Positions 18,480 through 63,749 of a DNA stretch of 64,000 bases are shown piece after piece; position 1 is the first letter of the stretch; every line of letters starts with the position of its first letter. The translations under genes were made by a program, and so were the position numbers. Source of the stretch: Candidatus Melainabacteria bacterium SSGW_16. Lineage in GTDB: Bacteria > Cyanobacteriota > Vampirovibrionia > 2-02-FULL-35-15. A model generated the notes under the pieces. The model saw only the letters and a program-made list of their open reading frames with translations. It was not told where the DNA came from and made no database searches. The stretch is from the NCBI GenBank assembly GCA_004769085.1, contig DUDS01000044.1:44670-108669 (forward strand). Direction: 5' to 3'.

Positions 18480-18612
18480 AACAACCTAAATACTTTAACA
18501 ATCTTTAAAAAGTCTTTCTACAGCATTGATGTAATGTAATATATTATATTAATCATGCAACGCAACTACTCAGCTACCACAATAATCTATTAGTAAACAG
18601 TCAACATGGAAA

Positions 18613-18719
18613 GGTTTTGACGATTCATTCGTCAAAACCTGTATAATATTACAAGTGGCAGACCGTGAGCACTTTGCAAAGCCGACAAGCGAAGAATGAG
18701 CGAGGAAGGCGGTGAGTAA
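18613..18719 (+). promoter_or_regulatory. GC-rich leader element, copy R2a, upstream of the aldolase-like gene. It contains, in order: a hairpin GGUUUUGACG-AUUCAUU-CGUCAAAACC; an extended -10-like TGTATAAT; AUUACAAGUGG; then UUUGCAAAGCC...GCGAAGAAUGAGCGAGGAAGGCGGUGAGUAA.
   Basis: The hairpin spans 18613-18639. A possible sigma-70 promoter is TTGACG (18617-18622), a 19-nt spacer, then TG-TATAAT (18640-18647). The mini-ORF ATGAGCGAGGAAGGCGGTGAGTAA (18696-18719) ends 5 nt before the main ATG. The element is paralogous to 34723-34833 on the minus strand. Confidence 0.6.
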
Positions 18720-18724
18720 TTACC

Positions 18725-31602: not shown

Positions 31603-33030
31603 CTAAAGATTTCTCACATCAATAAACGGAAAGCGTTCACTGGTGACAAAATCGCCTCTTTTTTTAAATCTTCCAATCCCCATTAGTTCAAGAATTGTTT
31701 CTCCAACCATAGAAGCATGATAAGCATCACCAACTATTTCTCCTTTATTATTAGTTTGACCTATTAACTTTCCCTTCTTAATATCATTGCCAAAAACAAC
31801 CATCCCGAATGCATTAGTCCAATGTTGACGCCCAGCCGCTTTGTAAAGCGGTTCACCAGTTTCAACATCTCTGTCTACTTCATATCCTGGCGTCCTACCA
31901 AATTCAGTCACCATTACAACATACACTTTCTCATTCATACGATTTATATCATCTAGTAAAGCACTTAATGCTTGAGCAAACGGAGGAATCATAAGCCTCA
32001 TATTGTTCTCTAAACCACCATGATGGTCATAATTACCATCATTTGCAACTACAATCCTGGCACCCCTTTGAAGCATTCGTCTTGCAAGCAGCAATTGTTT
32101 TCCTACTTTACTATCTCCATATTTTATTATTTCTTCAGGTGATTCATTGTTTAAATCAAAAGATTTGTAGAAATCTCCACCGAGTAAACTTCTAGCCTTC
32201 TCATATGATTTTCTATGTTTATCTACTGATGCTCCAACAAGTTTATGCCCATTTATAGCTTCCATTTGGTCAAGAAGTTCCAGCCTAGCCCTTAGTTCAT
32301 TAATTGGAATACCATCTGTATCATTAAACGGGTTTGTAAATGCTCCTGTATTGGTATCATATGCTGAATAAATAGTTTCTGGATCTCCTGACTTTACAGC
32401 ATCCCATGGACTTCTAAATAACCTATCATCACCATGTATATCTTTTGTATTTTGATGAAGGACTACATAACCAACATCTTTAGTAGCTTGCTTAGTTAAC
32501 GTCCTTGAGAACTCTACAAAAGGATTTGTATTTGGCGTTGGTGAATAAAAATCTGAACCTTCTACTTTTGGACTTGAAGTAAAAACAATTGCACCACCAA
32601 CATGATGGAACCCATCACCACCATATAAATTGTTAACCACAACTGCATTGTTCATGTGTCTTGCAATTGGATTAAGAATGTCAGTAACTTTAATATCACT
32701 ACATGCAGTATCAATTGGTTTAAATGGTCCAGCTATGCTTGAATGTGTTTTTGGATCAAAGGTATCAAAAAAACTAAGCCCTCCTTGCATAAAAACAATA
32801 ACTACCTTATGCCCTGGATCTTTACCATTTCTTGTTGTAAACCTTAACTCATGCTCAGGAATGATATCGCTAACCTGAACTCCAGCTCCAGATGCATGAC
32901 TTGGAAGAAGGGAAGGTAAAAGTGTTGCTGCAATAGGCATACTAAAAGCAGTATGCAAAAACCTTCTACGTGTAAGTTGAGGGTTATATACAAAATTAGC
33001 TTGTGGAATATTTACAGGAAAAATCCCCAT
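31603..33030 (-). CDS. DUF1501-family protein (sulfatase/alkaline-phosphatase-like superfamily) with a twin-arginine signal.
   Basis: The N-terminus has TRRRFLHTAFSMPIAATLL (Tat motif). The FMQGGLSFFDTFDPK signature is typical of DUF1501. Confidence 0.65.
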   Translation of the reverse strand: MGIFPVNIPQANFVYNPQLTRRRFLHTAFSMPIAATLLPSLLPSHASGAGVQVSDIIPEHELRFTTRNGKDPGHKVVIVFMQGGLSFFDTFDPKTHSSIAGPFKPIDTACSDIKVTDILNPIARHMNNAVVVNNLYGGDGFHHVGGAIVFTSSPKVEGSDFYSPTPNTNPFVEFSRTLTKQATKDVGYVVLHQNTKDIHGDDRLFRSPWDAVKSGDPETIYSAYDTNTGAFTNPFNDTDGIPINELRARLELLDQMEAINGHKLVGASVDKHRKSYEKARSLLGGDFYKSFDLNNESPEEIIKYGDSKVGKQLLLARRMLQRGARIVVANDGNYDHHGGLENNMRLMIPPFAQALSALLDDINRMNEKVYVVMVTEFGRTPGYEVDRDVETGEPLYKAAGRQHWTNAFGMVVFGNDIKKGKLIGQTNNKGEIVGDAYHASMVGETILELMGIGRFKKRGDFVTSERFPFIDVRNL

Positions 33031-34719: not shown

Positions 34720-34722
34720 TTT

Positions 34723-34833
34723 TTACCTACCGCCTTTCTCGCTCATTCTTCGCTTGTCAGGCTTTGCAATGTGCACTTAAAAGATACCTCTTTTCACACC
34801 TTTCAGATTTTACCGAATGAATCGGATAAAATC
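34723..34833 (-). promoter_or_regulatory. GC-rich leader element, copy R2b, directly upstream of nuoA. It has a hairpin GAUUUUAUCCG-AUUCAUU-CGGUAAAAUC, then UUUUAAGUGCACAUUGCAAAGCC, then GCGAAGAAUGAGCGAGAAAGGCGGUAGGUAA.
   Basis: The mini-ORF ATGAGCGAGAAAGGCGGTAGGTAA (34746-34723) stops 3 nt before the nuoA ATG. The hairpin stems differ from copy R2a but keep pairing, and the loop is identical. Confidence 0.6.
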
Positions 34834-34908
34834 TTCCTGCATAAATAGTCAAACCTGATATTGTTACCTAACCAGGTAGTAACAACAATTAATTTATATC
34901 ATACCTTA

Positions 34909-35625
34909 TCAGTCTCCACCAAAAATCCTACCTACATCAGCCAGTGGTCCACTGCTGGTACTACCACCGGTAATTACATTTGCAAATCTGGAAAATGGTA
35001 ATGATTGCAGAATTATTTTACCTGGACCCTTAAGTTCTGTCAGAAATAGCCCTTCGCCCCCAAAGATAGCAGTCTTGAGATTTCTAACCATCTTAATGTC
35101 ATAGTGTACACCTTCTTCAAATGCTACAAGACAGCCAGTATCTACAAGAATTTTCTGGTCCTGAGCTAATTCTTTATGAATTGCTATACCTCCGCAATTT
35201 AAAAATACTTTTCCATTACCAGTAAACTTTTCAAGCACAAATCCTTCACCACCAAAAAAACCAACCTTGAACTTTTTTATAAAGCTAACATTTATTGACA
35301 CTGAACCAATAGAAAATAAAAAGCTTCTCTTTTGTGCCTGCCAAGTTTTACCCTCACCAACCTCAACTTCAAGGATTTTAGCCGGATAAGAAGGTGCAAA
35401 TGCAATCCTACAACTGTCTGATTTTGCTTTAAACACAGGCAGCATAAAAGATTCACCAACAAACATTCGTTTAAGTCCTCCTACCCAGCCACCAGGCATT
35501 CTAAGATCCATGTCAATGTCACCTTCCATAAAAAACATACTGCCAGCATCTGCCTGAACAAATTCACCGTTGTCCATGTCAACAACTGCAGTCTGCATAT
35601 CATTACCAATTATTTCGTACTTCAT
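34909..35625 (-). CDS. AIM24/DUF124 (TIGR00266)-family protein.
   Basis: Repeated GFFGGEGF / AIFGGEGLF motifs. Start placed at MKYEIIG, 16 nt after the upstream TPR gene. Confidence 0.65.
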   Translation of the reverse strand: MKYEIIGNDMQTAVVDMDNGEFVQADAGSMFFMEGDIDMDLRMPGGWVGGLKRMFVGESFMLPVFKAKSDSCRIAFAPSYPAKILEVEVGEGKTWQAQKRSFLFSIGSVSINVSFIKKFKVGFFGGEGFVLEKFTGNGKVFLNCGGIAIHKELAQDQKILVDTGCLVAFEEGVHYDIKMVRNLKTAIFGGEGLFLTELKGPGKIILQSLPFSRFANVITGGSTSSGPLADVGRIFGGD

Positions 35626-35641
35626 TAATACTCCTTTATTA

Positions 35642-36841
35642 TCAATATTTTGCTGTATATTCCTTGACAAATTCATCGTTTAAAAAAAGCTTTGCCATTA
35701 TTTCACCTGTATTTTTTACAGGATTTCTGCACGTTACTTCTACCGCCTGGGTTACATCGGCTTCTACAAAGTCTGACTGATAAATATCAATTCCGTTTTC
35801 ATATTCATCAAAAAACTCTATCCTGTAATTTTTAACAGGTACTTCCGTAAGAGACTGAACTCTAAACATCAGGGACGGATAAAGGAACTCACCTACTGGA
35901 GCAATTTCCAACAATTCATTTGATATTTTATATTTTGCATTCAGGGCAATTATCCTTTTCAGAATACTTGTTTTTCTCGGATCATCCTGGCTGCCTGCAA
36001 GAATCAATTTTACCTTCTCAATTATTTCTTCCCGACTTGCTCTGTCTTTTTCCTTTTCAGCAGCTTCCCTGAGAACATTTGCAAAGGTAATTTTATAATT
36101 ATAGTTCTCAGGATCAATGTGAAGTGCCTCTTCAAAATCTCTCTGTGCAGAGTCAATGTCACCAAGCTCGCTTAGTAAAAGTGCCTCCTGGTAATATACT
36201 TCGGCATTCTTACCAAGCAATTTAGCTTTCTTTAACACCTTAAGTGCCTCGTTAATTTTGTTTTCGGATTTTAATTCACTTACAAGCCGAAAATATTTTG
36301 GCAGAAGAAGTGCTTTAATGCTTTCCTTCATTTCAGTTTGTCGCAGCTTAGATGCTCCGAAAAAAGCTTTCTCCCATAATTCAAGAGACTTTTCCGGAAT
36401 TATATGACCACTGGTTATATAGTGCTTTACAAGCCGTTTTGTAATCTCATTTTCATCATGATTCTTCAGATAATCAAGTATATAAAGCTTTGCATACTTT
36501 TTATTTCCGTTATTGTAATTTGATTCAGCAAGACTTACAAGAAAATTCTGATAATTAGGATTCTTAATCAGAATTTTAGAAAGTTTGTTTACTGCTATAA
36601 GTTTGTTTGCTTCATCAATTTCCCCACTTAATAAATAACTCTTTGCAAGAGCAAATGAAATCTCAATGTTTTTGGGATACATCTTGTGTCCTTCTTCAAG
36701 GACAGAAAGTGCTTTTGCAACCTTTCCACTTCTAATGCTTGTATCTGATTCAAAAATGTATCTATATGGTGAACTGACAAAAAAATAAAACAATCCTAAA
36801 GATGTAAGAAAGATACCAGTAAAAAATAAAATTCTTTTCAT
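35642..36841 (-). CDS. Tetratricopeptide-repeat protein with an N-terminal signal/anchor.
   Basis: Multiple 34-residue A/Y/L-periodic repeats (ALSVLEEGHKMYPKN..., YQEALLLSELGDIDSAQRDFEEAL...). Confidence 0.65.
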   Translation of the reverse strand: MKRILFFTGIFLTSLGLFYFFVSSPYRYIFESDTSIRSGKVAKALSVLEEGHKMYPKNIEISFALAKSYLLSGEIDEANKLIAVNKLSKILIKNPNYQNFLVSLAESNYNNGNKKYAKLYILDYLKNHDENEITKRLVKHYITSGHIIPEKSLELWEKAFFGASKLRQTEMKESIKALLLPKYFRLVSELKSENKINEALKVLKKAKLLGKNAEVYYQEALLLSELGDIDSAQRDFEEALHIDPENYNYKITFANVLREAAEKEKDRASREEIIEKVKLILAGSQDDPRKTSILKRIIALNAKYKISNELLEIAPVGEFLYPSLMFRVQSLTEVPVKNYRIEFFDEYENGIDIYQSDFVEADVTQAVEVTCRNPVKNTGEIMAKLFLNDEFVKEYTAKY

Positions 36842-42065: not shown

Positions 42066-42767
42066 ATGCTAAAATTAAACTGTATGAAATTCTCAGTAAT
42101 AATATTTCCAGGTTCAAACTGCGATGAAGACTGTATTCATGTGCTAAAAAATGTGCTCGGTCAGGAAGTAAATAAAGTTTTTCATACTGAAGAAAAGCTC
42201 CTAAAGACAGACTGTGTAGTTATACCAGGAGGATTCAGCTATGGCGATTATCTAAGATCAGGAGCTATAGCCAGGTTTTCAAATATTATTAATCCAATAA
42301 TAGATTTTGCTAACAAGGGCGGCTTAGTAATTGGTACTTGTAACGGTTTTCAAATTTTGTGTGAGGCAGGGTTATTACCTGGTGCGCTCACAACCAATAA
42401 ATCTCTAAGTTTTATTTGCGATGAAGTGTATCTTAAAATATCAAACAGTAAAACAAAATTTACAAGTGAATACAGAAATAATGAAATAATCAGACTACCA
42501 ATAGCGCATGGAGATGGACGTTATATTACAAAAGATTTAAACAAAGAACAAATCATATTTCAGTACTGCAGCAAAGATGGAATTATCAATGATAATTTTA
42601 ATCCGAACGGATCTACTGAGAATATTGCAGGAATAATAAATAAAAAAGGGAACGTGCTTGGAATGATGCCACATCCTGAAAGAGCATGTGAATCCATATT
42701 AGGGAATGAAGATGGAAAAAAACTATTTGCAAGTCTAATTAGCTCATCTATTGCCCTTGTACATTAA
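42066..42767 (+). CDS. purQ: Phosphoribosylformylglycinamidine synthase subunit PurQ (glutaminase).
   Basis: 233 aa. [14 protein letters not shown], the catalytic GTCNGFQIL cysteine motif, and the C-terminal MMPHPER. Confidence 0.9.
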
Positions 42768-44133
42768 AGAACAGATTTTTTTCAATTTGAATGTTATTGG
42801 CATATTTTGCTTTTGCAAGATTTACAGCAGCTTCTGTATTGAGAAGTCCATTACCAAACACAAAATCTTTTCCTGGCTCTCCTAAATCTTCTGCAGACTG
42901 AAACAGTATTTGCCTGACATCCTCAGAAGAAATATCCGGAGCAACAGACCAAATTAATGCTGCTGTTCCAGCTACCTGTGGAGCAGCAAATGATGTTCCT
43001 GAAACTGAGGAATACCCTGAATAAAGTGAAGTGGTATAAATAGATGCTCCAGGTGCTACAAGGGAAACATGATCTCCCAGGGTACTATATGATTCAATTT
43101 TCTTACTGGAATTTACTGCACCAACACCTATAACACCTTCAAATGCTGCCGGGTACCTAACTTCTCTCTCACCTGTATTTCCCGCAGTGGATATAATGAG
43201 TATCCCTCTTTCATTTGCTTCCTGAACTGAATCTTTCAAAACCTGTGAGAACTGACTTGTACTTAAGCTGATTTGTACAATTTTAACTCCTTCAGTATAT
43301 GTACGGTCTAACGCTTCAACCACTGTTGAAACCCTGGCCTGACCATACTCATCTGTTACCTTTATAGGTAATATTTTTGTATTCCATGAAACTCCAGCTA
43401 TACCCTGTTTATTATTTGTATTTGCTGCTATTATTCCGGATACTTCAGTTCCATGACCGATAGCATCGTTTTTGTCTTCCGGTAGAAGATTTTCACTCCC
43501 AAATATTTTTCCTTCCAAATCAGGGTGATTAGCATCAACGCCTGTATCCAGCACACCAACTACCAGCGAATTGCCTTTTGTTGTACCCCATGCTTTTGGT
43601 GCATTTATTTGTCTTAAATAGTATTGGGATGAAAAGTCACTGTCATTTGGTGTTATTTCAAGTTGATCATTCAAAACATCTCCCTCTTTTATATCATTTA
43701 CATTTTCTGCAATGTTGTTACTTTCTCCCTGTGCATTTTCATCTCTTATATTTATCTTTATGTAATTTCTCTCGTCAGAAATCTCATCCAGATAAAATTT
43801 ATAATCAGGTTCTACTGTTTTAAACAAACCGCTATTTTTTAATTCCTGTATCTTAGCAACTTTATCTTCTGAGCTGCTTAAAGGAATAACAAAGAGATTA
43901 CTTTTTACTTTTCTGTAACCAACAATTCCTGCTCTGTACATAAGCCTGTCAAGTCTCCTTCCTCGTTGAGCTTCACTAGAAGGAACAACAATCAATGAAT
44001 CATAATCATCTTCAGAATTTTCTTTTGCACTAACAGCTGAAAAACCAGGTAAAAAAGAAAAAGCAAGAAGTAAAAAGCACATTAATACCCTTAGTGCCTG
44101 TAACTTCCTGCCTGTTACTTTGTAATTTGTCAT
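42748..44133 (-). CDS. Secreted S8-family (subtilisin-like) serine peptidase.
   Basis: Catalytic triad motifs [17 protein letters not shown] and [11 protein letters not shown]. Signal peptide after the [25 protein letters not shown] start. The table's start at 44190 lies inside a GC-rich leader. Confidence 0.85.
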
Positions 44134-44260
44134 TGTTTTGATTCGGTAACCCAGCTGCCCGTTCCGGGCCTGTAGCTTTGCGTCCTGCAATTCCTTGCAG
44201 TTTGCCCTTTCGTCAAAGGCTTAAAAATTAAGCCAAAAAAAACAAAAGTTACTTAAAGTA
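44134..44260 (-). promoter_or_regulatory. GC-rich structured 5' leader of the S8 peptidase gene.
   Basis: In gene sense it shows three hairpins: GGCUUAAUUUUUAAGCC, CUGCAA-GGAA-UUGCAG (GNRA-like loop), and GCCCG-GAA-CGGGC. It is purine-rich with GCAAAGC and GACGAAAGGG motifs shared with the other leaders. Confidence 0.45.
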
Positions 44261-54951: not shown

Positions 54952-55905
54952 ATGAAGACAAGTTTTAAAAAACCAAAAAAAGAAATAAATGAATTTTATT
55001 CAAATCCATTCTGTGATATTGAAATTCAGGCAGAAAATTTTGAAGGTAATGAAAACAAAAAACAGCCTTATATAGAAGATACTGATTCAATAAAACTCTA
55101 TCTAAAGCAATTAAGCTCAATATCTCTGCTATCACAAGAAGAAGAAATTAAGCTTGCAAAAAAAGTAAGAAAAGGTGATCTGAACGCAAAAAGAGAACTT
55201 GTGAAAAGGAATCTCAGGCTAGTTGTATCAATTGCAAAAAGATACATGAACCATGGTCTTTCTTTTCTGGATCTGATTCAGGAAGGGAATCTTGGGTTAA
55301 TAAAAGGGGCTGAAAAATTTGATCCGACCAAAGGATTTAAATTCTCTACTTATGCTACATGGTGGATCAGGCAGGCAATAACCAGGGCACTAGCAGATAA
55401 ATCAAGGACAATTAGAGTACCTGTGCATGTTTCTGAATATATAAACAAACTTAAAAAAGCTGTCAGAGTTATTTCCCAGGCAATAGGCAGAGAGCCAAAA
55501 GAAGAAGAAATTGCACAATACCTCGACACAAATATTGAAGAACTGCAGAATATGATTAATGCAACCAGGATACCAGTGTCAACAGACTCACTAATAGGAA
55601 CTGATGAAACATTTGAACTACAGGAAGTAATAGAAGACAAATTTATAAACAGCACGTATGATGAAATGACAACTAAAGATCTGAAATTTAAAATTGAAGA
55701 CACTCTTGCCCATCTTAATAAGAATGAAAAAGACGTTATTGAATTAAGATATGGACTAAATGATGGCGCAAAATATACTTTAAGAGAGGTAGGAGAATCT
55801 CTGGGAATAAGTTATGGCAGAGCAAGGCAACTTCAGGCAAGTGCTCTTAAAAAACTAAGAAACAAAGAAATCACAACTACTTTAGAACCTTATCTATATA
55901 ATTAA
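54952..55905 (+). CDS. Sigma-70-family RNA polymerase sigma factor (compact RpoD-like, regions 1.2-4).
   Basis: Region 2 [57 protein letters not shown]. Region 4 [28 protein letters not shown]. Confidence 0.85.
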
Positions 55906-56846: not shown

Positions 56847-59800
56847 TTATCTAAGAGCAGCCCTCCTTAATGCTGCAATGTTTTCAACTATAATGTCTTC
56901 TTCCGCTTGTCCTATAAATTGTTTCAATGGTACTCTGTCACCAATTATCTGCTTATAACTATAGTTAGGAATAAAAAGACTTTTTAGATTTGCCCAGCTC
57001 CCGGGATTTACAAACCTAATTTCATAATCACAGTCTTTAATGTTTTGATCCAAATAAGATCTTAGTTTCCCTAGAGGAGATTGAGCATCATTTTCACCAG
57101 CTTTAAGCACATCAGGTACTGCAACATATAAGACATTATTACAGTACAAGACAGGAATTGCTTCTGGTTCATTTTTTCTTATAGGCCAATAATCAGGCAG
57201 CAACGTAAACAGCTCATTATCTATCCTAGTTAAATCTATAATATTTCCTGTCTCATCAATTATTGAATCTATATGCGTGTAATTAAGTGGTTTTGCTCTT
57301 AAAGAACCATAATCAAATCTTTCATGATGGCGCATTTTTGATCGTTCATAGATCTGACGCAGCATGCGAATCTGTACAAGTAAATCACCTGTATCAGCTC
57401 TACGCAATAAATCCATTGTGTGCTTTCTACTCTGAGTTCTATCTTTAGAAGTTTCTACTAAGGCTCTTAAAATTTCCGGCTTTTCTTCTATTCTCCCTTC
57501 GCAGATTTTTCTTGTTTCAATTAAAACTTCTTCCCAGTCTTTTCCAAGTACTTCTGAATCATCCGAGTCATCAAATGGATCAGGTTTCTTTTCCGGTTCT
57601 GCTTCATCAACAACTACTGCCTCTTCAGCAGATTCTTCAATATCAGCTACTGGTTCATCCTCAATCTTATCTTCTGTAATATCAATACCAGCAACAATTC
57701 TGTCAAAATGTTCTGAGTACTGCCCGTATATTCTTTGGTATCTAATTTCATGTACAGTAACAGCTTCAAAAACAAGTTCAACAATAGAATTTAAAATCCC
57801 AAGCACATTTGTCCGCATACTGTATTTTTTATCTGTTTCACATGCAGATAAAAGCAGTTCTCTCGGGTTTCCACCTGGTCTTTTAATTTTCCTTACCTCA
57901 TTAATAGAATCTTTTAACTGGGATTTTAATTCATCATCCAGATTTGTTTCATCTATAACCACATCCCTTATCGTCCTTAAAAAATGACTTAGCTTTCTAT
58001 CAGATAAAATTAATTGTCCTTTATTTACCCCAGATGGATATTTTGCAATCAATATTTTTTCAAGAGCAGTGCATCTGTCTTTTTCTCTGGTTTCTTTATC
58101 AGAGGTAGGTGATGGCAAAACAGCAGCAGCAAGTGCCTCATATAATGCATCTGTCTGTTCAAGAATATTGCTTTGCGGTCTGTGTGCCAGTAAAGGTTCC
58201 AGGCAGGTCCCTTCAATACCTGTCGCATGCTCTTCATATCCTTTTTCCCTTAAGCCCGTTATTTTAATATTATCTGGTTTAAATTCAGTGTCGACATCCC
58301 TTAAAAGTGAAACAATCAGTGCGGTTCTTGTAGGATGTCTGTCAACTACATCATTAATCTGAATATGAGAACTACCAAAGCATTCTGTCTTTGAATTTTT
58401 CTCTCCAAAAAGTATTATAAATGCATTTTCAATTGATTTTGCTACATCAGAGAATCCCCCTGTTAATCCAAATGCTACAAAGTGATCATGCCACTGAATA
58501 GCATGTGACATATAATAATTTTTCAAATTTATAAAATCTTTTCTTGGAAGTCTGAGTGGAACCCCAAGATGAGGATGGAACTCTACTCCGTGATCTTCAA
58601 ACCCCTCAACTTTTTGTTCTTTTAGTTTCTCGAATATAGTATAAATGCTTCGTGCAAATCTTAACTGGAATAGCCTTCTTCCTGCTTCTCCATCCCACAT
58701 ACCGGAGAACCTTATATCACCAGGTGCTATCTTTCCAACTTCCCAGCCAAAATGCTGAGGATAGACTCGTTTCAGCGCATCATAAGCAGTACCAACACCA
58801 GAACGTCTCAGACATCCTGTACATTCATCGTTATACTGAACACTCCAGTCTTTTATAGCTTTTAATCCTTCCAGATTTATATTCCCAACTTCATCTATAA
58901 GTTTCAATTTCTTCTCAACAATATATTTAGTAGTTTCATCTATAACAGTTAATTTATTTTTATCGTCCCATTTCCCGGAATATTTAAATCTGTGTTTAGG
59001 GAAAAAATCAAAAACCCCTGGAACTGCAAGTTCAAGTGCCCCCAGTGTCCCATCAAGAAACTCACATATACCAAGTCCTCCTCTTAAGCCATATTCCTGT
59101 TTCCAGAATACGTCAGTCCAGTCAACATCAATAAATTTTTCTACATTTATTGTGTTATCAGGATTTATTACTCCTTGGGCATAAACTGCATCCTTTACAG
59201 TTCTTTCAGCCAGTGTTTTTATTCGAGGCATGTCAGCTGAATCATCAGACTGCCACTTACCAGGATAAGCTATTTTAGCTTCTCGTATAGGTGGGTTTGA
59301 TCCGTCTAGGTATCCGGGCTGAATAATCTTCAACAGTTCAGGCACAGAAATTAATTTACTGTATTTTTGTAATCCTGCTTTAACAAAAGCATTGGTCCAT
59401 CCACTAAAATCCTCAACCTTTCGTGCTGTATCCAGCCCAAGCAAATCAACTACAAAATATTTTCCAATTGTTTCAATTTTTTTCACCAGGTCCGGATCAT
59501 CATGGTTTAAAAAACCATGTGGTGCAGCTTTTAAAAATCCTCTCTTATTAAGACCAGATTTTATACATAGATATGTAACCAATGCTTCAAAATTCTTATC
59601 ATCTCTTAGTTCTTCATCTATTCTTCCATCTGTAATAAGAGCATCAATTTTCTGGTCATATACTCCTTTTAATGACTCACCTGAAACAGTTGAATTTTTT
59701 CCATAAATGCTTCCAAAAGGATGATCCTGACACTGCTGTTTTACCTCCAGAAGTAATTTTCTAAGCTGTGTCTTTTCTTCAGTTTGCTTGTACCTGATTT

Positions 59801-60458
59801 TTGTTTTCTTTGTTGCTGAAAAACCACCTTCAGGTGCTTTCACCTTATATTTAAATGAGCTTTTTAACTCTGCACGATAACTTCTGTTAATTGCCCTATA
59901 TTTTCTTTTTAAATCCTGTGCAGTATTCCACTCTTCTTTAATTTCATTTACTACAAGCCTGGCTTTTTTAAGCAAAGCAGGACTAATGCCTTTTAGTTTT
60001 ATTTCAGCTCTAGGAGTTTCTACAGGTTTTGGAATTGTTTCTGGAATATATGTAACAGTTACATAAGCATCATCACCAGAGCCTTTACCTCTAATATGAA
60101 CTTTTGTCTGACCTGGTGTTGGATTAGCATAAGGAATAAATTTAATTGTTGTTTCAGACTTAGGTGCTACCTCAGCATCACTAAAAAATGTTTGAGTAGA
60201 AGTAGCCACCTCATTAATATTTGGGGTTGCATTAACAATAAATGATTTATTTTCACCTCCTACAGTTGTAGTAAATCCTGTGTAACTTAATACCCCTGCA
60301 AGTGCTGGATTTAAATCCGGTGCATTTCTTCTTTTGGTAGTGGCAGGAATTGTAGCATCACCAGCTAACTGACCATCACCATTTGAAGGCGGAACCATAT
60401 TTGCTGAACCGCCTGTTGCAGGTATCCCTACTGGTATTGTTGCTTCATGAACTCGCAT
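56847..60458 (-). CDS. Large orphan multi-domain protein (1203 aa) of unknown function.
   Basis: A single uninterrupted ORF with no signal peptide. It has four parts: an N-terminal about 150-aa Gly/Thr/Pro-rich beta-like region; a Lys-rich linker; an about 700-aa central region; then an acidic linker (EDEPVADIEESAEEAVVVDEAEPEKKPDPFDDSDDSE) and an about 230-aa C-terminal domain. No motif I can assign. It is preceded by a conserved leader. Confidence 0.7.
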   Translation of the reverse strand: MRVHEATIPVGIPATGGSANMVPPSNGDGQLAGDATIPATTKRRNAPDLNPALAGVLSYTGFTTTVGGENKSFIVNATPNINEVATSTQTFFSDAEVAPKSETTIKFIPYANPTPGQTKVHIRGKGSGDDAYVTVTYIPETIPKPVETPRAEIKLKGISPALLKKARLVVNEIKEEWNTAQDLKRKYRAINRSYRAELKSSFKYKVKAPEGGFSATKKTKIRYKQTEEKTQLRKLLLEVKQQCQDHPFGSIYGKNSTVSGESLKGVYDQKIDALITDGRIDEELRDDKNFEALVTYLCIKSGLNKRGFLKAAPHGFLNHDDPDLVKKIETIGKYFVVDLLGLDTARKVEDFSGWTNAFVKAGLQKYSKLISVPELLKIIQPGYLDGSNPPIREAKIAYPGKWQSDDSADMPRIKTLAERTVKDAVYAQGVINPDNTINVEKFIDVDWTDVFWKQEYGLRGGLGICEFLDGTLGALELAVPGVFDFFPKHRFKYSGKWDDKNKLTVIDETTKYIVEKKLKLIDEVGNINLEGLKAIKDWSVQYNDECTGCLRRSGVGTAYDALKRVYPQHFGWEVGKIAPGDIRFSGMWDGEAGRRLFQLRFARSIYTIFEKLKEQKVEGFEDHGVEFHPHLGVPLRLPRKDFINLKNYYMSHAIQWHDHFVAFGLTGGFSDVAKSIENAFIILFGEKNSKTECFGSSHIQINDVVDRHPTRTALIVSLLRDVDTEFKPDNIKITGLREKGYEEHATGIEGTCLEPLLAHRPQSNILEQTDALYEALAAAVLPSPTSDKETREKDRCTALEKILIAKYPSGVNKGQLILSDRKLSHFLRTIRDVVIDETNLDDELKSQLKDSINEVRKIKRPGGNPRELLLSACETDKKYSMRTNVLGILNSIVELVFEAVTVHEIRYQRIYGQYSEHFDRIVAGIDITEDKIEDEPVADIEESAEEAVVVDEAEPEKKPDPFDDSDDSEVLGKDWEEVLIETRKICEGRIEEKPEILRALVETSKDRTQSRKHTMDLLRRADTGDLLVQIRMLRQIYERSKMRHHERFDYGSLRAKPLNYTHIDSIIDETGNIIDLTRIDNELFTLLPDYWPIRKNEPEAIPVLYCNNVLYVAVPDVLKAGENDAQSPLGKLRSYLDQNIKDCDYEIRFVNPGSWANLKSLFIPNYSYKQIIGDRVPLKQFIGQAEEDIIVENIAALRRAALR

Positions 60459-60489: not shown

Positions 60490-60595
60490 TTACTCAGGTG
60501 GCTTGCTCATAATTCGCTGCGCCACCTTTCCATACTACTCCTGGTAAACCAAATCCTCCACAATTCAGGTTTTGCGGAATGAATCGGTCAAAACC
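60490..60595 (-). promoter_or_regulatory. GC-rich leader element, copy R1b, upstream of the 1203-aa ORF: a hairpin GGUUUUGACCG-AUUCAUU-CCGCAAAACC followed by the UAUGGAAAGGUGGCG...GCCACCUGAGUAAAAAAA module.
   Basis: In minus sense it reads tatggaaaggtggcgcagcgaattatgagcaagccacctgagtaaaaaaa, which matches 10045-10094 with the differences concentrated in the hairpin loop. The mini-ORF ATGAGCAAGCCACCTGAGTAA spans 60510-60490. Confidence 0.6.
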
Positions 60596-60740
60596 TTCTC
60601 TAATTAATTAGTTTATTTTAATTACCATCGACATAACTGAGTAATTATTTAAAACATTAAACTCAAAACATTCTATATCCTGTTATAAATTAAAATGTTA
60701 AAAACGAATCACACATTAGAAAGAGCAATAAAGATTAAAT

Positions 60741-62955: not shown

Positions 62956-63324
62956 ATGTTTGTTTTAGATCTTATAACTGGCTCAATAATTCCAACAATA
63001 AATATTAGTGGAACTCTTCGCGGACTTAGAACAGGTTCTTTTCAAACAATACAACGAGAATTAATGAATCAAACACCAAATGAAGAACTAATAAATCGTA
63101 ATCTTACTTTCCTGAGAGCTACACAAAAAATAGGCTTTGCACCACCAGCTAATACCAGAGATTACTTTCAGAATATTATAGTGAATGGGCAGTTAAATAT
63201 TGGTACACTACAAGGTAGAGTAAATCGTCAGCCTGAGTTAGCTGGTGAAGTTGCACCTATAATCGGTCGTATTCAAAGGCAAGTTCAATATGCTCAAGAA
63301 TTTCAACCTGCTGGAAGACCCTAA
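62956..63324 (+). CDS. Hypothetical protein (122 aa).
   Basis: ORF with AAAGGAG 8 nt upstream. Confidence 0.45.
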   Translation: MFVLDLITGSIIPTINISGTLRGLRTGSFQTIQRELMNQTPNEELINRNLTFLRATQKIGFAPPANTRDYFQNIIVNGQLNIGTLQGRVNRQPELAGEVAPIIGRIQRQVQYAQEFQPAGRP

Positions 63325-63428: not shown

Positions 63429-63749
63429 ATGTCAGCACTTCCTATTAGAAAGACTGGAACTGAGCAGCCATTAGCTGTTAGTATTAATACTCCTAAAACA
63501 AGATTGAAAATAAGAAAAGGAGAAGATTCAGATACAACTCCTTCAGTATCTTTTGAAGCTCATGCAAAAGCTAATTTCCCAGACAACCCACGCGCTCAGG
63601 AGCTTGAAATAAAACTGAGAAGAGGATTGGGACTTACTCCTGAAGAAAAAGCAGAGTTTAGAGAAATTGTTGTTAGAGACAGTGATAGACTCACAGATAT
63701 ATTGTGCTGGAGAATGATTGATGGGATTTTTAGATCGGGGAAAAAGTAG
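63429..63749 (+). CDS. Hypothetical protein (106 aa).
   Basis: ORF only. Confidence 0.4.
   Translation: MSALPIRKTGTEQPLAVSINTPKTRLKIRKGEDSDTTPSVSFEAHAKANFPDNPRAQELEIKLRRGLGLTPEEKAEFREIVVRDSDRLTDILCWRMIDGIFRSGKK

What the first reader, a model, noticed from the sequence alone, without database searches (positions are those of the whole stretch)
56847..60458. A 1203-aa orphan multi-domain protein with a conserved leader and no recognisable domains
A 3.6-kb uninterrupted ORF lies between queA and panE. It has four sections: an N-terminal Gly/Thr/Pro-rich beta-strand-like region (TIKFIPYANPTPGQTKVHIRGKGSGDDAYVTVTYIP); a highly basic Lys-rich linker; an about 700-aa central body; and an acidic linker followed by an about 230-aa C-terminal domain.

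It has no signal peptide, no Walker motifs, no HExxH, and no repeat units (YD/RHS or Ig-like) that I can see. It is driven by one of the conserved leader cassettes (R1b plus the AUUCAUU hairpin).

Size, modularity and absence of housekeeping motifs fit a polymorphic toxin or effector, a phage-derived structural protein, or a novel enzyme. It is the largest uncharacterised coding feature in the window.
Basis: seen in the sequence. Interest (0 to 1): 0.6.

Follow-up and report, generated by a model that had tools for sequence, protein, structure and literature searches.

The report
Undescribed Melainabacteria repeat protein, sigma-linked family
The 1203-residue gene is real and intact, and it belongs to an unnamed protein family, so far seen only in Melainabacteria (non-photosynthetic relatives of cyanobacteria), whose confidently predicted fold matches nothing solved and whose repeat core is fused to complete sigma-70 transcription factors in sister genes.

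Summary
The ORF (56847-60458, minus strand, 1203 aa) is real. The identical protein is encoded on 7 contigs, and colinear orthologs lie in the same queA...ApbA-MlaD slot in other Melainabacteria.

It is not an orphan: an exhaustive search finds 94 cluster representatives, none with an informative name. No Pfam, NCBIfam, PHROGs, PADLOC or PDB-sequence match exists.

Relatives carry tandem arrays of 2-5 paralogs. In at least 8 proteins the repeat core is fused to a full sigma-70 module, sometimes in the same syntenic slot.

Family-wide conserved residues are W/P/G/L/A/F/R/E, so an enzyme is unlikely. Nothing supports a toxin or phage origin.

Best reading (inferred, about 0.35): a cytoplasmic regulatory scaffold sharing its body with "giant" sigma factors and docking a partner through its C-terminal domain.

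The parts
56847..60458 (-). Complete ORF, 1203 aa plus stop codon
   Evidence: ORF listed. The identical protein is encoded on 7 contigs. Colinear orthologs P0002-P0008 share 34-48% identity.
60159..60458 (-). Residues 1-100: disordered, Gly/Thr/Pro/Ala-rich N-terminal tail with a short conserved motif DLNPALA (about residues 48-54)
   Evidence: pLDDT is 31-62 and only a short helix is predicted at the motif. N50 and L53 are invariant among 8 orthologs.
59709..60158 (-). Residues 101-250: small beta unit (FxPYxxPTPG...), the RxEIKLxG motif, and long basic helices (net charge +14 over residues 156-250)
   Evidence: pLDDT is >90 for most of the segment, with strands and 40-residue helices. P109, R150, L155 and A166 are conserved in 76-83 family sequences. 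Charge computed.
59562..59708 (-). Residues 251-299: helical connector into the repeat core
   Evidence: Model secondary structure. Family coverage rises from about 25 to about 80 sequences across this stretch.
59265..59561 (-). Repeat R0 (residues 300-398), partial copy of the Trp-rich helical repeat
   Evidence: hhalign R0 vs R1 gives 93.2% (E 3e-7) and R0 vs R2 gives 94.1% (E 1.3e-7).
58977..59264 (-). Repeat R1 (residues 399-494)
   Evidence: hhalign R1 vs R2 gives probability 98.5%, E 3.2e-15, over 84 columns. W402 and W447 are conserved.
58701..58976 (-). Repeat R2 (residues 495-586)
   Evidence: hhalign comparison. W497, W538, P567 and G571 are conserved in 75-83 sequences.
58389..58700 (-). 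Repeat R3 (residues 587-690), the most divergent copy
   Evidence: hhalign R1 vs R3 gives 93.7%, E 1.9e-7. W588, G593 and F597 are conserved.
57684..58388 (-). Residues 691-925: helical C-terminal part of the body ('X'). It is present, often diverged, in most family members and is replaced by sigma-70 in the fusion paralogs.
   Evidence: pLDDT is mostly >90. Coverage and architecture counts. Tail sequences.
57534..57683 (-). Residues 926-975: disordered acidic linker (22 D+E, net charge -18)
   Evidence: pLDDT <50 over model residues 927-966. Charge computed.
56850..57533 (-). Residues 976-1203: C-terminal domain, a helical bundle followed by a beta-beta-alpha-beta-alpha unit with a T2SSE_N/GSPII-like fold and a conserved terminal helix (EN.AALR.A)
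60490..60605 (-). 5' leader element shared with two other genes of the window. Hairpin 1 is at 60568-60595 (loop CGAUUCAUUCCG). Hairpin 2 is at 60497-60526 (GGUGGC...AGCGAAUUAUGAGC...GCCACC).
   Evidence: Sequence. Three-copy alignment has 59 invariant columns. Exactly three copies of both boxes occur in the window. RNAalifold finds 12 pairs in hairpin 1 with compensatory changes. There is no Rfam match.

Best explanation
The gene encodes a soluble, cytoplasmic, probably non-enzymatic multi-domain protein. It belongs to a previously undescribed paralog family so far seen only in Melainabacteria (Vampirovibrionia).

Architecture:
- Residues 1-100 form a disordered tail carrying one short conserved motif.
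- Residues 101-925 form a compact 'body'. It consists of a small beta/basic-helix unit, four tandem Trp-rich ~95-residue helical repeats (R0-R3, residues 300-690) and a helical cap.
- Residues 926-975 form a ~50-residue acidic, disordered linker.
- Residues 976-1203 form a C-terminal domain whose alpha/beta part has the fold of the N-terminal docking domain of type II secretion and type IV pilus ATPases (T2SSE_N/GSPII). It lacks that domain's c-di-GMP motif and the ATPase itself.

Proposed mechanism (inferred, not shown): the repeat body is a ligand- or partner-binding platform that the lineage also uses as the N-terminal extension of 'giant' sigma-70 factors. In this ortholog group the sigma output is replaced by a tethered docking domain. 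The protein would then act as a regulatory adaptor or decoy. The body would engage the same signal or partner as in the giant sigmas, possibly RNA polymerase or a regulator of it. The flexible acidic linker would present the GSPII-like domain to a second protein, as EpsE-N1 docks onto EpsL or PilB-N onto PilZ.

The gene is preceded by a structured leader shared with the nuoA operon and an aldolase-hemA-hemC cluster, which suggests common post-transcriptional control.
For: Shown:
- The gene is intact and conserved.
- The family has 94 representatives. The shared core maps to residues ~280-600, seen in about 85 of them.
- The model is high-confidence (pLDDT 86.9; 905 of 1199 residues at >=90).
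- Internal repeats are supported.
- Five representatives (P0043, P0047, P0052, P0059, P0080) plus three further genes in loci L007 and L009 carry the repeat core followed by complete Sigma70 r1.2-r4 as single continuous ORFs. P0057 and P0056 carry a degenerate region 2/region 4-like tail.
- In L009 two such fusions occupy the slot upstream of PALP-ApbA-MlaD-ATP-sulfurylase-IGPS. In the window and in L004/L007 that slot holds the CTD-type ortholog.
- Tandem arrays of 2-5 paralogs occur in L004, L006, L007 and L008.
- There is no TM segment.
- Conserved residues are structural (W/P/G/L/A/F) plus a few R/E.

Inferred: cytoplasmic location and a transcription-linked role (from the sigma fusions, by domain-fusion logic), and the docking role of the C-terminal domain (from the known roles of GSPII domains; PMC5013675 for MshEN).
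Against: - No direct evidence links this particular protein to RNA polymerase.
- Only about 7% of family representatives are sigma fusions. Most are body-only proteins, so the body may have a function unrelated to transcription that sigma factors merely borrowed.
- The neighbouring 317-aa sigma-70 (54952-55905) is not the counterpart of the fused sigmas. It is 37-43% identical to them, against 57-92% to stand-alone sigmas of similar size. It lies between ApbA and MlaD only in this lineage. Its proximity therefore cannot be used as support.
- The tool does not report which residues of the C-terminal domain were aligned.
- The AlphaFold database could not be searched, so a structural relative among predicted structures is not excluded.
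Confidence: 0.35

Rival explanations
1. It is an adaptor or regulator of a type IV pilus or type II secretion-like machine, or another membrane platform, and is unrelated to transcription. The GSPII-like C-terminal domain docks onto a GspL/PilM-type platform protein or a PilZ-type protein, as in the secretion ATPases. The large body recruits cargo or acts as a spacer.
For: The only recognisable fold in the protein is the GSPII/T2SSE_N-like unit. GSPII domains are known docking modules (the hit list includes the EpsE-N1 complex 2bh1 and the PilB-N/PilZ complex 7lkm). The organism uses c-di-GMP signalling, as shown by a c-di-GMP-I riboswitch in the window.
Against: No pilus or secretion genes lie in this neighbourhood or in any of five related neighbourhoods. 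The protein has no ATPase domain. The c-di-GMP motif is absent. Most family members lack this C-terminal domain altogether. The sigma fusions are left unexplained.
Confidence: 0.2
2. It is a novel enzyme whose active site lies in the repeat body or the cap region.
For: It is a large, well-folded globular body with no known relatives. A few conserved polar residues exist (R150, E349, R392).
Against: No conserved His, Cys or Ser, and no nucleotide-binding or metal motif, is found across the family; the only Asp at >=80% (D1080) lies in the C-terminal domain and is seen in only 29 sequences. Conservation is dominated by Trp/Pro/Gly/Leu in a repeat pattern, which is typical of binding scaffolds. 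Orthologs share only 34-48% identity while the neighbouring enzymes share 58-76%.
Confidence: 0.1
3. It is a polymorphic toxin or secreted effector. A conserved N-terminal body would carry variable C-terminal modules, expanded in tandem arrays.
For: The family shows variable C-terminal modules on a conserved body, and tandem paralog arrays. The N-terminal 100 residues are disordered. Evolution is faster than in neighbouring genes.
Against: The variable modules are sigma-70 factors and a GSPII-like domain, not toxins. There is no signal peptide or TM segment. There are no RHS/YD, PAAR, LXG or other trafficking domains. There are no immunity-like small ORFs and no secretion loci nearby. PADLOC gives no hit.
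Confidence: 0.06
4. It is a phage- or mobile-element-derived structural protein, or an assembly or frameshift artefact that fuses two genes.
For: Only its size and its lack of annotation.
Against: There are no PHROGs hits and no relative in 2.9 million viral contigs. It occupies a conserved syntenic chromosomal slot. Its composition matches its surroundings. The identical ORF appears on 7 contigs, the places shown coming from three samples, and orthologs are colinear.
Confidence: 0.02

Closest known systems
T2SSE_N / GSPII domain (Pfam PF05157): the N-terminal domain of GspE/EpsE/XpsE, PilB, PilF and MshE ATPases; its c-di-GMP-binding subtype is MshEN
   Different: It sits at the C-terminus of a non-ATPase protein. 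It does not reach the Pfam model even at E<=1. It lacks both the strict and the relaxed 24-residue c-di-GMP motifs of MshEN (motif taken from PMC5013675). Sequence identity is 9-19%.
Sigma-70 family factors with N-terminal extensions (region 1.1 and lineage-specific N-terminal domains of group 1/2 sigmas)
   Same: In paralogs (P0043, P0047, P0052, P0059, P0080, and genes in L007 and L009) the same repeat core sits directly N-terminal to sigma region 1.2, separated by a short acidic stretch. That is the position canonical sigmas give to acidic region 1.1.
Alpha-helical repeat scaffolds (ARM/HEAT/TPR solenoids)
   Same: It is mostly helical, built from tandem repeats, and conserved mainly at structural positions. 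A binding-platform role is plausible.
   Different: The repeat unit is ~95 residues with about five helices and a beta-hairpin-like loop, not a 34-45-residue helix pair. Foldseek alignments to importin, beta-catenin, separase and others have TM 0.05-0.1 and E>0.2, which is no real match.

Membership tests
T2SSE_N / GSPII (PF05157) | Significant match to the family's sequence profile | tested here: not met
   Pfam scan of the full protein at E<=1 gives 0 families. A profile of 14 C-terminal domains against PDB sequences finds no GspE/PilB/MshE hit.
T2SSE_N / GSPII (PF05157) | The GSPII fold (helical subdomain plus a beta-beta-alpha-beta-alpha subdomain) | tested here: met
T2SSE_N / GSPII (PF05157) | Location N-terminal to a GspE/PilB-type AAA+ secretion ATPase | tested here: not met
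   The domain lies at the C-terminus. No ATPase domain is detected by Pfam or NCBIfam.
MshEN c-di-GMP receptor subtype | Two tandem 24-residue motifs RLGxx(L/V/I)(L/V/I)xxG(L/V/I)(L/V/I)xxxxLxxxLxxQ, or the relaxed form [RKPN]hGxxhhxx[GAS]hhxxxxhxxxhxx[QNKRYWST] | tested here: not met
   Motif taken from PMC5013675. Regular-expression scans of all 98 family proteins give 0 matches to the strict core or to the relaxed motif. Binding itself is not testable here.
Sigma-70 family | Regions 2 and 4 (Pfam Sigma70_r2, Sigma70_r4) | tested here: not met
Polymorphic toxins (RHS/YD, CDI, LXG and similar) | N-terminal secretion or trafficking domain, repeat shell (RHS/YD or filamentous haemagglutinin), C-terminal toxin domain, adjacent immunity gene | tested here: not met
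   No Pfam hits and no TM or signal-like hydrophobic segment. The downstream gene is ApbA/panE and the upstream gene is queA. The variable C-terminal modules in paralogs are sigma-70, not toxins.
Phage structural proteins | Similarity to a PHROG family, or presence on viral contigs or in a prophage context | tested here: not met
   PHROGs gives 0 hits. The IMG/VR scan gives 0 relatives. The chromosomal context is syntenic.
Known anti-phage defence proteins | Match to a PADLOC model | tested here: not met
   0 hits at E<=0.1.
New family defined here (Trp-repeat body family) | RxEIKL motif and basic helix, then R0-R3 repeats with conserved W402/W447/W497/W538/W588, P389-P390-x-R392, G571 | tested here: met
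   The query is the seed. 94 representatives have E<1e-3 and 76 have E<1e-10. Conservation and repeats.

The most novel reading that the evidence does not exclude
The Trp-repeat body is a new sensory or docking module of the bacterial transcription apparatus. Fused to sigma-70 it makes 'giant' sigma factors of 900-1170 residues. As sigma-less paralogs such as this 1203-aa protein, it makes decoys or adaptors that compete for the same signal or RNA-polymerase surface and relay it through a GSPII-like docking domain. This would be a lineage-specific layer of transcription control in the non-photosynthetic sister group of cyanobacteria, encoded in an expanding paralog hot spot.
Probability: 0.2. 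Interest if true: 0.8.

Novelty: categorically new. Interest (0 to 1): 0.58.

Why it matters
Melainabacteria are the closest non-photosynthetic relatives of cyanobacteria, and almost nothing is known about their regulation. This gene leads to a whole family: 94 clusters, with up to five paralogs side by side. Its ~800-residue body is predicted with high confidence, yet it matches no sequence family and no solved structure.

The same body has repeatedly been joined to complete sigma-70 factors. Sigma factors with a 600-700-residue structured N-terminal extension did not turn up in my two literature searches. If the body controls sigma activity, for example by sensing a ligand, tethering or auto-inhibiting, it would be a new way of regulating transcription initiation.

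"New" here refers to the family, its fold and its domain architectures. The function is inferred, not shown.

The recurring, Rfam-unknown leader RNA upstream of this gene, of nuoA and of an aldolase-heme cluster is a second candidate regulatory element worth testing.

Tried and rejected
1. Direct sequence annotation: Pfam, NCBIfam, PHROGs, PADLOC and PDB sequences, using the single sequence and three profiles (A1, A4, A6). Nothing was found.

2. The A2 profile hit RpoD in the PDB. I rejected this as evidence about the window protein because A2 contains the sigma-fusion paralogs. The ortholog-only and core-only profiles give no RpoD hit.

3. Rosetta-stone link to the neighbouring 317-aa sigma-70. 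I rejected this. That sigma is 37-43% identical to the fused sigma domains but 57-92% identical to stand-alone sigmas of similar size, and it is absent from the ApbA-MlaD junction in four other genomes.

4. The idea that the C-terminal tails of body-only paralogs are degenerate sigma domains. Iterative searches recruit only the true fusions. Only P0057 and P0056 have a weak region 2/4-like tail. Inspection shows that most tails are diverged copies of the 691-925 cap.

5. c-di-GMP binding by the C-terminal domain. The motif is absent.

6. Widening the C-terminal domain family with a profile search of 5.8 billion proteins. Only two near-identical fragments were found.

8. The first genome scan with exact peptide patterns found nothing. 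The alignment-based scan found two Melainabacteria MAGs.

10. Literature searches for Melainabacteria sigma factors and for sigma factors with large N-terminal extensions returned nothing relevant.
Full report
**1. The observation**

An ATG-started ORF of 1203 codons lies on the minus strand at 56847..60458. Its GC content (0.35-0.38) matches its surroundings. Upstream on the same strand is a Queuosine_synth (queA) gene. Downstream, 15 nt after the stop, is an ApbA/panE-type gene, followed by a convergent 317-aa sigma-70 gene, MlaD, ATP-sulfurylase and IGPS.

The identical protein is encoded on 7 contigs read. The three places shown come from a JGI sample and two sequencing runs. Eight full-length relatives align colinearly from the first Met to the C-terminus. 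The ORF is therefore not a frameshift fusion. The rest of the window is ordinary chromosome: UvrB, PBP1A, NDH-1 subunits, heme synthesis and CoaBC.

**2. Organism and family**

The window matches a 128-kb metagenome contig. The two GTDB genomes that encode relatives are Candidatus Melainabacteria MAGs from groundwater. Relatives of the neighbouring sigma factor are also named Melainabacteria or Obscuribacterales.

The word-indexed search found only 8 proteins. The exhaustive HMMER search of 1.84 billion representatives found 94 with E<1e-3, 76 with E<1e-10 and 45 with E<1e-30. Of the ten clusters looked up, nine carry no name and one is called 'hypothetical protein'. The gene is therefore not an orphan, but it belongs to an undescribed family.

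Coverage of the query differs by region:
- Residues ~280-600 are shared by about 85 sequences.
- Residues 600-900 are shared by about 40.
- The N-terminal 100-280 and the C-terminal 930-1203 are shared by about 20.

**3. No sequence-level annotation**

Pfam and NCBIfam (E<=1), PHROGs and PADLOC (E<=0.1) and PDB sequences gave nothing for the protein. Profiles of the orthologs (A1), of the repeat core (A6) and of the C-terminal domain (A4) also gave nothing against PDB sequences. No relative exists in IMG/VR.

**4. Structure**

AlphaFold2 with a 93-sequence alignment gave mean pLDDT 86.9, with 905 of 1199 residues at >=90. The pTM of 0.54 reflects the flexibly linked parts. Model numbering is ORF numbering minus 4.

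- Residues 1-100 are disordered, except for a short helix at the conserved DLNPALA motif.
- Residues ~101-925 form a confidently predicted, mostly helical body.
- Residues ~926-975 are disordered and acidic, with net charge -18.
- Residues 976-1203 form a separate domain. Modelled alone it reaches pLDDT 88.5 and pTM 0.83.

**5. Cryptic repeats**

Family-wide conserved residues are dominated by Trp, Pro, Gly and Leu. The tryptophans W402, W447, W497, W538 and W588 are periodic. Profile-profile comparison of sub-alignments confirms tandem repeats of about 95 residues:
- R1 (399-494) vs R2 (495-586): probability 98.5%, E 3.2e-15.
- R0 (300-398) vs R1 and R2: 93-94%, E about 1e-7.
- R1 vs R3 (587-690): 93.7%, E 1.9e-7.

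A plain BLAST of R1 against R2 already shows 24% identity over about 100 residues. No His, Cys or Ser position reaches 80% conservation in the family alignment, and the only such Asp (D1080) lies in the C-terminal domain. This argues against an enzyme.

**6. C-terminal domain**

From the sequence pattern (LIPxWWP...AIPLLYxNNxLYIAxP...SWxxL) I suspected a T2SSE_N-like unit. This was a lead from memory.

The MshEN c-di-GMP motif, strict and relaxed forms as given in PMC5013675, is absent from all 98 family proteins. The domain therefore resembles the non-nucleotide-binding, protein-docking GSPII domains.

**7. Genomic context and paralogs**

The order GT2-queA-[family genes]-...-ApbA-MlaD-ATP-sulfurylase-IGPS is conserved. 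What varies is the family content of the slot:
- Window: one gene.
- L004: an 828-aa paralog plus the ortholog.
- L006: a 628-aa paralog, the ortholog and an 874-aa paralog, followed by PrkA-SpoVR-DUF444.
- L008: at least four members, interleaved with a PrkA-domain protein.
- L007: a 1173-aa and a 914-aa core-sigma-70 fusion, a PrkA-domain protein, and the ortholog.
- L009: two fusions of 992 and 914 aa.

By phmmer coverage, the 98 proteins held sort as follows:
- About 17 have the window's architecture (core + cap + C-terminal domain).
- About 17 have core + cap.
- About 43 have the core with more diverged tails. On inspection most of these tails are diverged caps.
- 5 have the core plus a full sigma-70 module.

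The fusions are continuous ORFs. They contain Sigma70 r1.2, r2, r3 and r4 above Pfam thresholds. In them the core ends around query position 600-700 and is followed by a short acidic stretch and region 1.2. P0057 and P0056 carry a short, degenerate region 2/region 4-like tail.

**8. What the sigma link does and does not show**

The fusions show that the repeat core works in the cytoplasm and is compatible with, and probably functionally coupled to, a sigma factor. They do not show that the window protein binds RNA polymerase.

I tested whether the 317-aa sigma two genes away is the split-off partner, and it is not. Its closest relatives are stand-alone sigmas of 289-333 aa at 57-92% identity. 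It is only 37-43% identical to the fused sigma domains. It lies between ApbA and MlaD only in this lineage.

The orthologs share 34-48% identity, while the flanking housekeeping genes share 58-76%. The family therefore evolves comparatively fast.

**9. The leader**

The 282-nt region upstream contains a ~115-nt element that recurs exactly three times in the window, always just 5' of a start codon. The three genes are this ORF, nuoA (followed by nuoB and nuoC), and a class II aldolase followed by hemA and hemC.

Hairpin 1 (GGUUUUGAC-CGAUUCAUUCG-GUCAAAACC) is supported by compensatory changes. The second hairpin keeps the loop AGCGAA..AUGAGC while its stem differs: GCC/GGC in two copies and GGUGGC/GCCACC here. 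Neither Rfam's gathering thresholds nor permissive E-value scans recognise the element. The exact boxes were not found in the orthologous loci of other species.

What the element senses is unknown.

**10. Interpretation**

Shown:
- The gene is real and conserved.
- It belongs to a new family restricted, as far as seen, to one lineage.
- Its body is a confidently predicted repeat structure without a PDB relative.
- Its C-terminal domain has a GSPII-like fold behind an acidic linker.
- Paralogs occur in arrays, and the core is fused to sigma-70 in some of them.

Inferred: the protein is a cytoplasmic, non-enzymatic regulatory scaffold. Its body engages the same signal or partner as in the giant sigma factors, and its tethered C-terminal domain docks a second protein. 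I put about 0.35 on this.

The rivals are:
- about 0.2 on a pilus- or secretion-type adaptor unrelated to transcription
- about 0.1 on an enzyme
- about 0.06 on a toxin or effector
- about 0.02 on phage origin or artefact

The remainder is something not yet imagined.

**11. Novelty and score**

Nothing in the libraries I could search describes the body or the giant sigma architecture. I therefore rate the family, its fold and its architecture as categorically new, and I stress that the function is inferred. Interest is 0.58. The object is unusual and opens a testable question about sigma-factor regulation in Melainabacteria, but for this specific protein the mechanism remains a hypothesis.

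Noticed in passing
window 60490-60605 (-), 34722-34838 (-), 18608-18722 (+): A ~115-nt structured leader recurs three times, each directly upstream of a start codon: the 1203-aa ORF, nuoA-nuoB-nuoC, and a class II aldolase followed by hemA and hemC. It has a conserved hairpin with loop CGAUUCAUUCG and a second hairpin with loop AGCGAA..AUGAGC whose stem differs between copies. It is not in Rfam. In two copies the 3' arm of hairpin 2 abuts a GGCGGUGAG sequence 8-12 nt before the AUG, so it might occlude the ribosome-binding site.
   Followed up: partly
L007 4572-7316 and 1-1704; L009 10001-12979 and 13074-15818; proteins P0043, P0047, P0052, P0059, P0080: 'Giant' sigma-70 factors of about 880-1170 residues. 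The Trp-repeat core of this family (~600-700 residues) is fused N-terminally to complete regions 1.2-4. In L009 two of them sit in the syntenic slot that holds the 1203-aa ORF in the window.
   Followed up: partly
L007 1699-4347 (-); L008 13502-16315 (-); L006 11831-16802: PrkA-domain proteins of 882-937 aa, with no AAA_PrkA hit on record, are interleaved with family paralogs. A canonical PrkA-SpoVR-DUF444 (YeaG/YcgB/YeaH-like) trio follows the array in L006. This may be a functional association with a stress or starvation module.
   Followed up: no
window 54952-55905 (+): A 317-aa sigma-70 (r1.2-r4) is inserted between ApbA and MlaD, overlapping the ApbA stop by 4 nt on the opposite strand. 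This insertion is absent in L004, L005/L007 and L009. Its closest relatives are stand-alone sigmas of 289-333 aa (57-92% identity), distinct from the ~340-aa Melainabacteria RpoD (about 52%).
   Followed up: partly
window 44142-44216 (-): A c-di-GMP-I riboswitch (65.4 bits, E 1.5e-10) lies immediately upstream of a subtilase (Peptidase_S8) gene. The mechanical ORF 42748-44190 starts inside the aptamer, so the true start must be further downstream.
   Followed up: partly
window 60297-60317 (-), residues ~48-54 of the ORF: A short conserved motif, DLNPALA, is embedded in the otherwise disordered and variable N-terminal 100 residues (N50 and L53 invariant in 8 orthologs). It looks like a linear docking motif.
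   Followed up: no
proteins P0057 (residues ~640-847) and P0056: Family members whose tail looks like a minimal, degenerate sigma: a region 2-like FIQEGREAIW...EFSTHAFWNIRGKIAR, a region 4-like ...LRLRLFEDKTFDEIATVFG..., and a sub-threshold Sigma70_r2 hit (E 0.0017).
   Followed up: partly
window 62956-63324 (+) and 63429-63749 (+): Two small ORFs (122 and 106 aa) have no Pfam match. They are called as genes in the same order on two contigs that encode the identical protein (L001, L002).
   Followed up: no
window 31603-33030 (-) and 34909-35676 (-): A DUF1501 protein directly follows nuoA-nuoB-nuoC, and an AIM24-family protein lies just upstream of the nuoA leader. These are unusual neighbours for an NDH-1 operon.
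   Followed up: no
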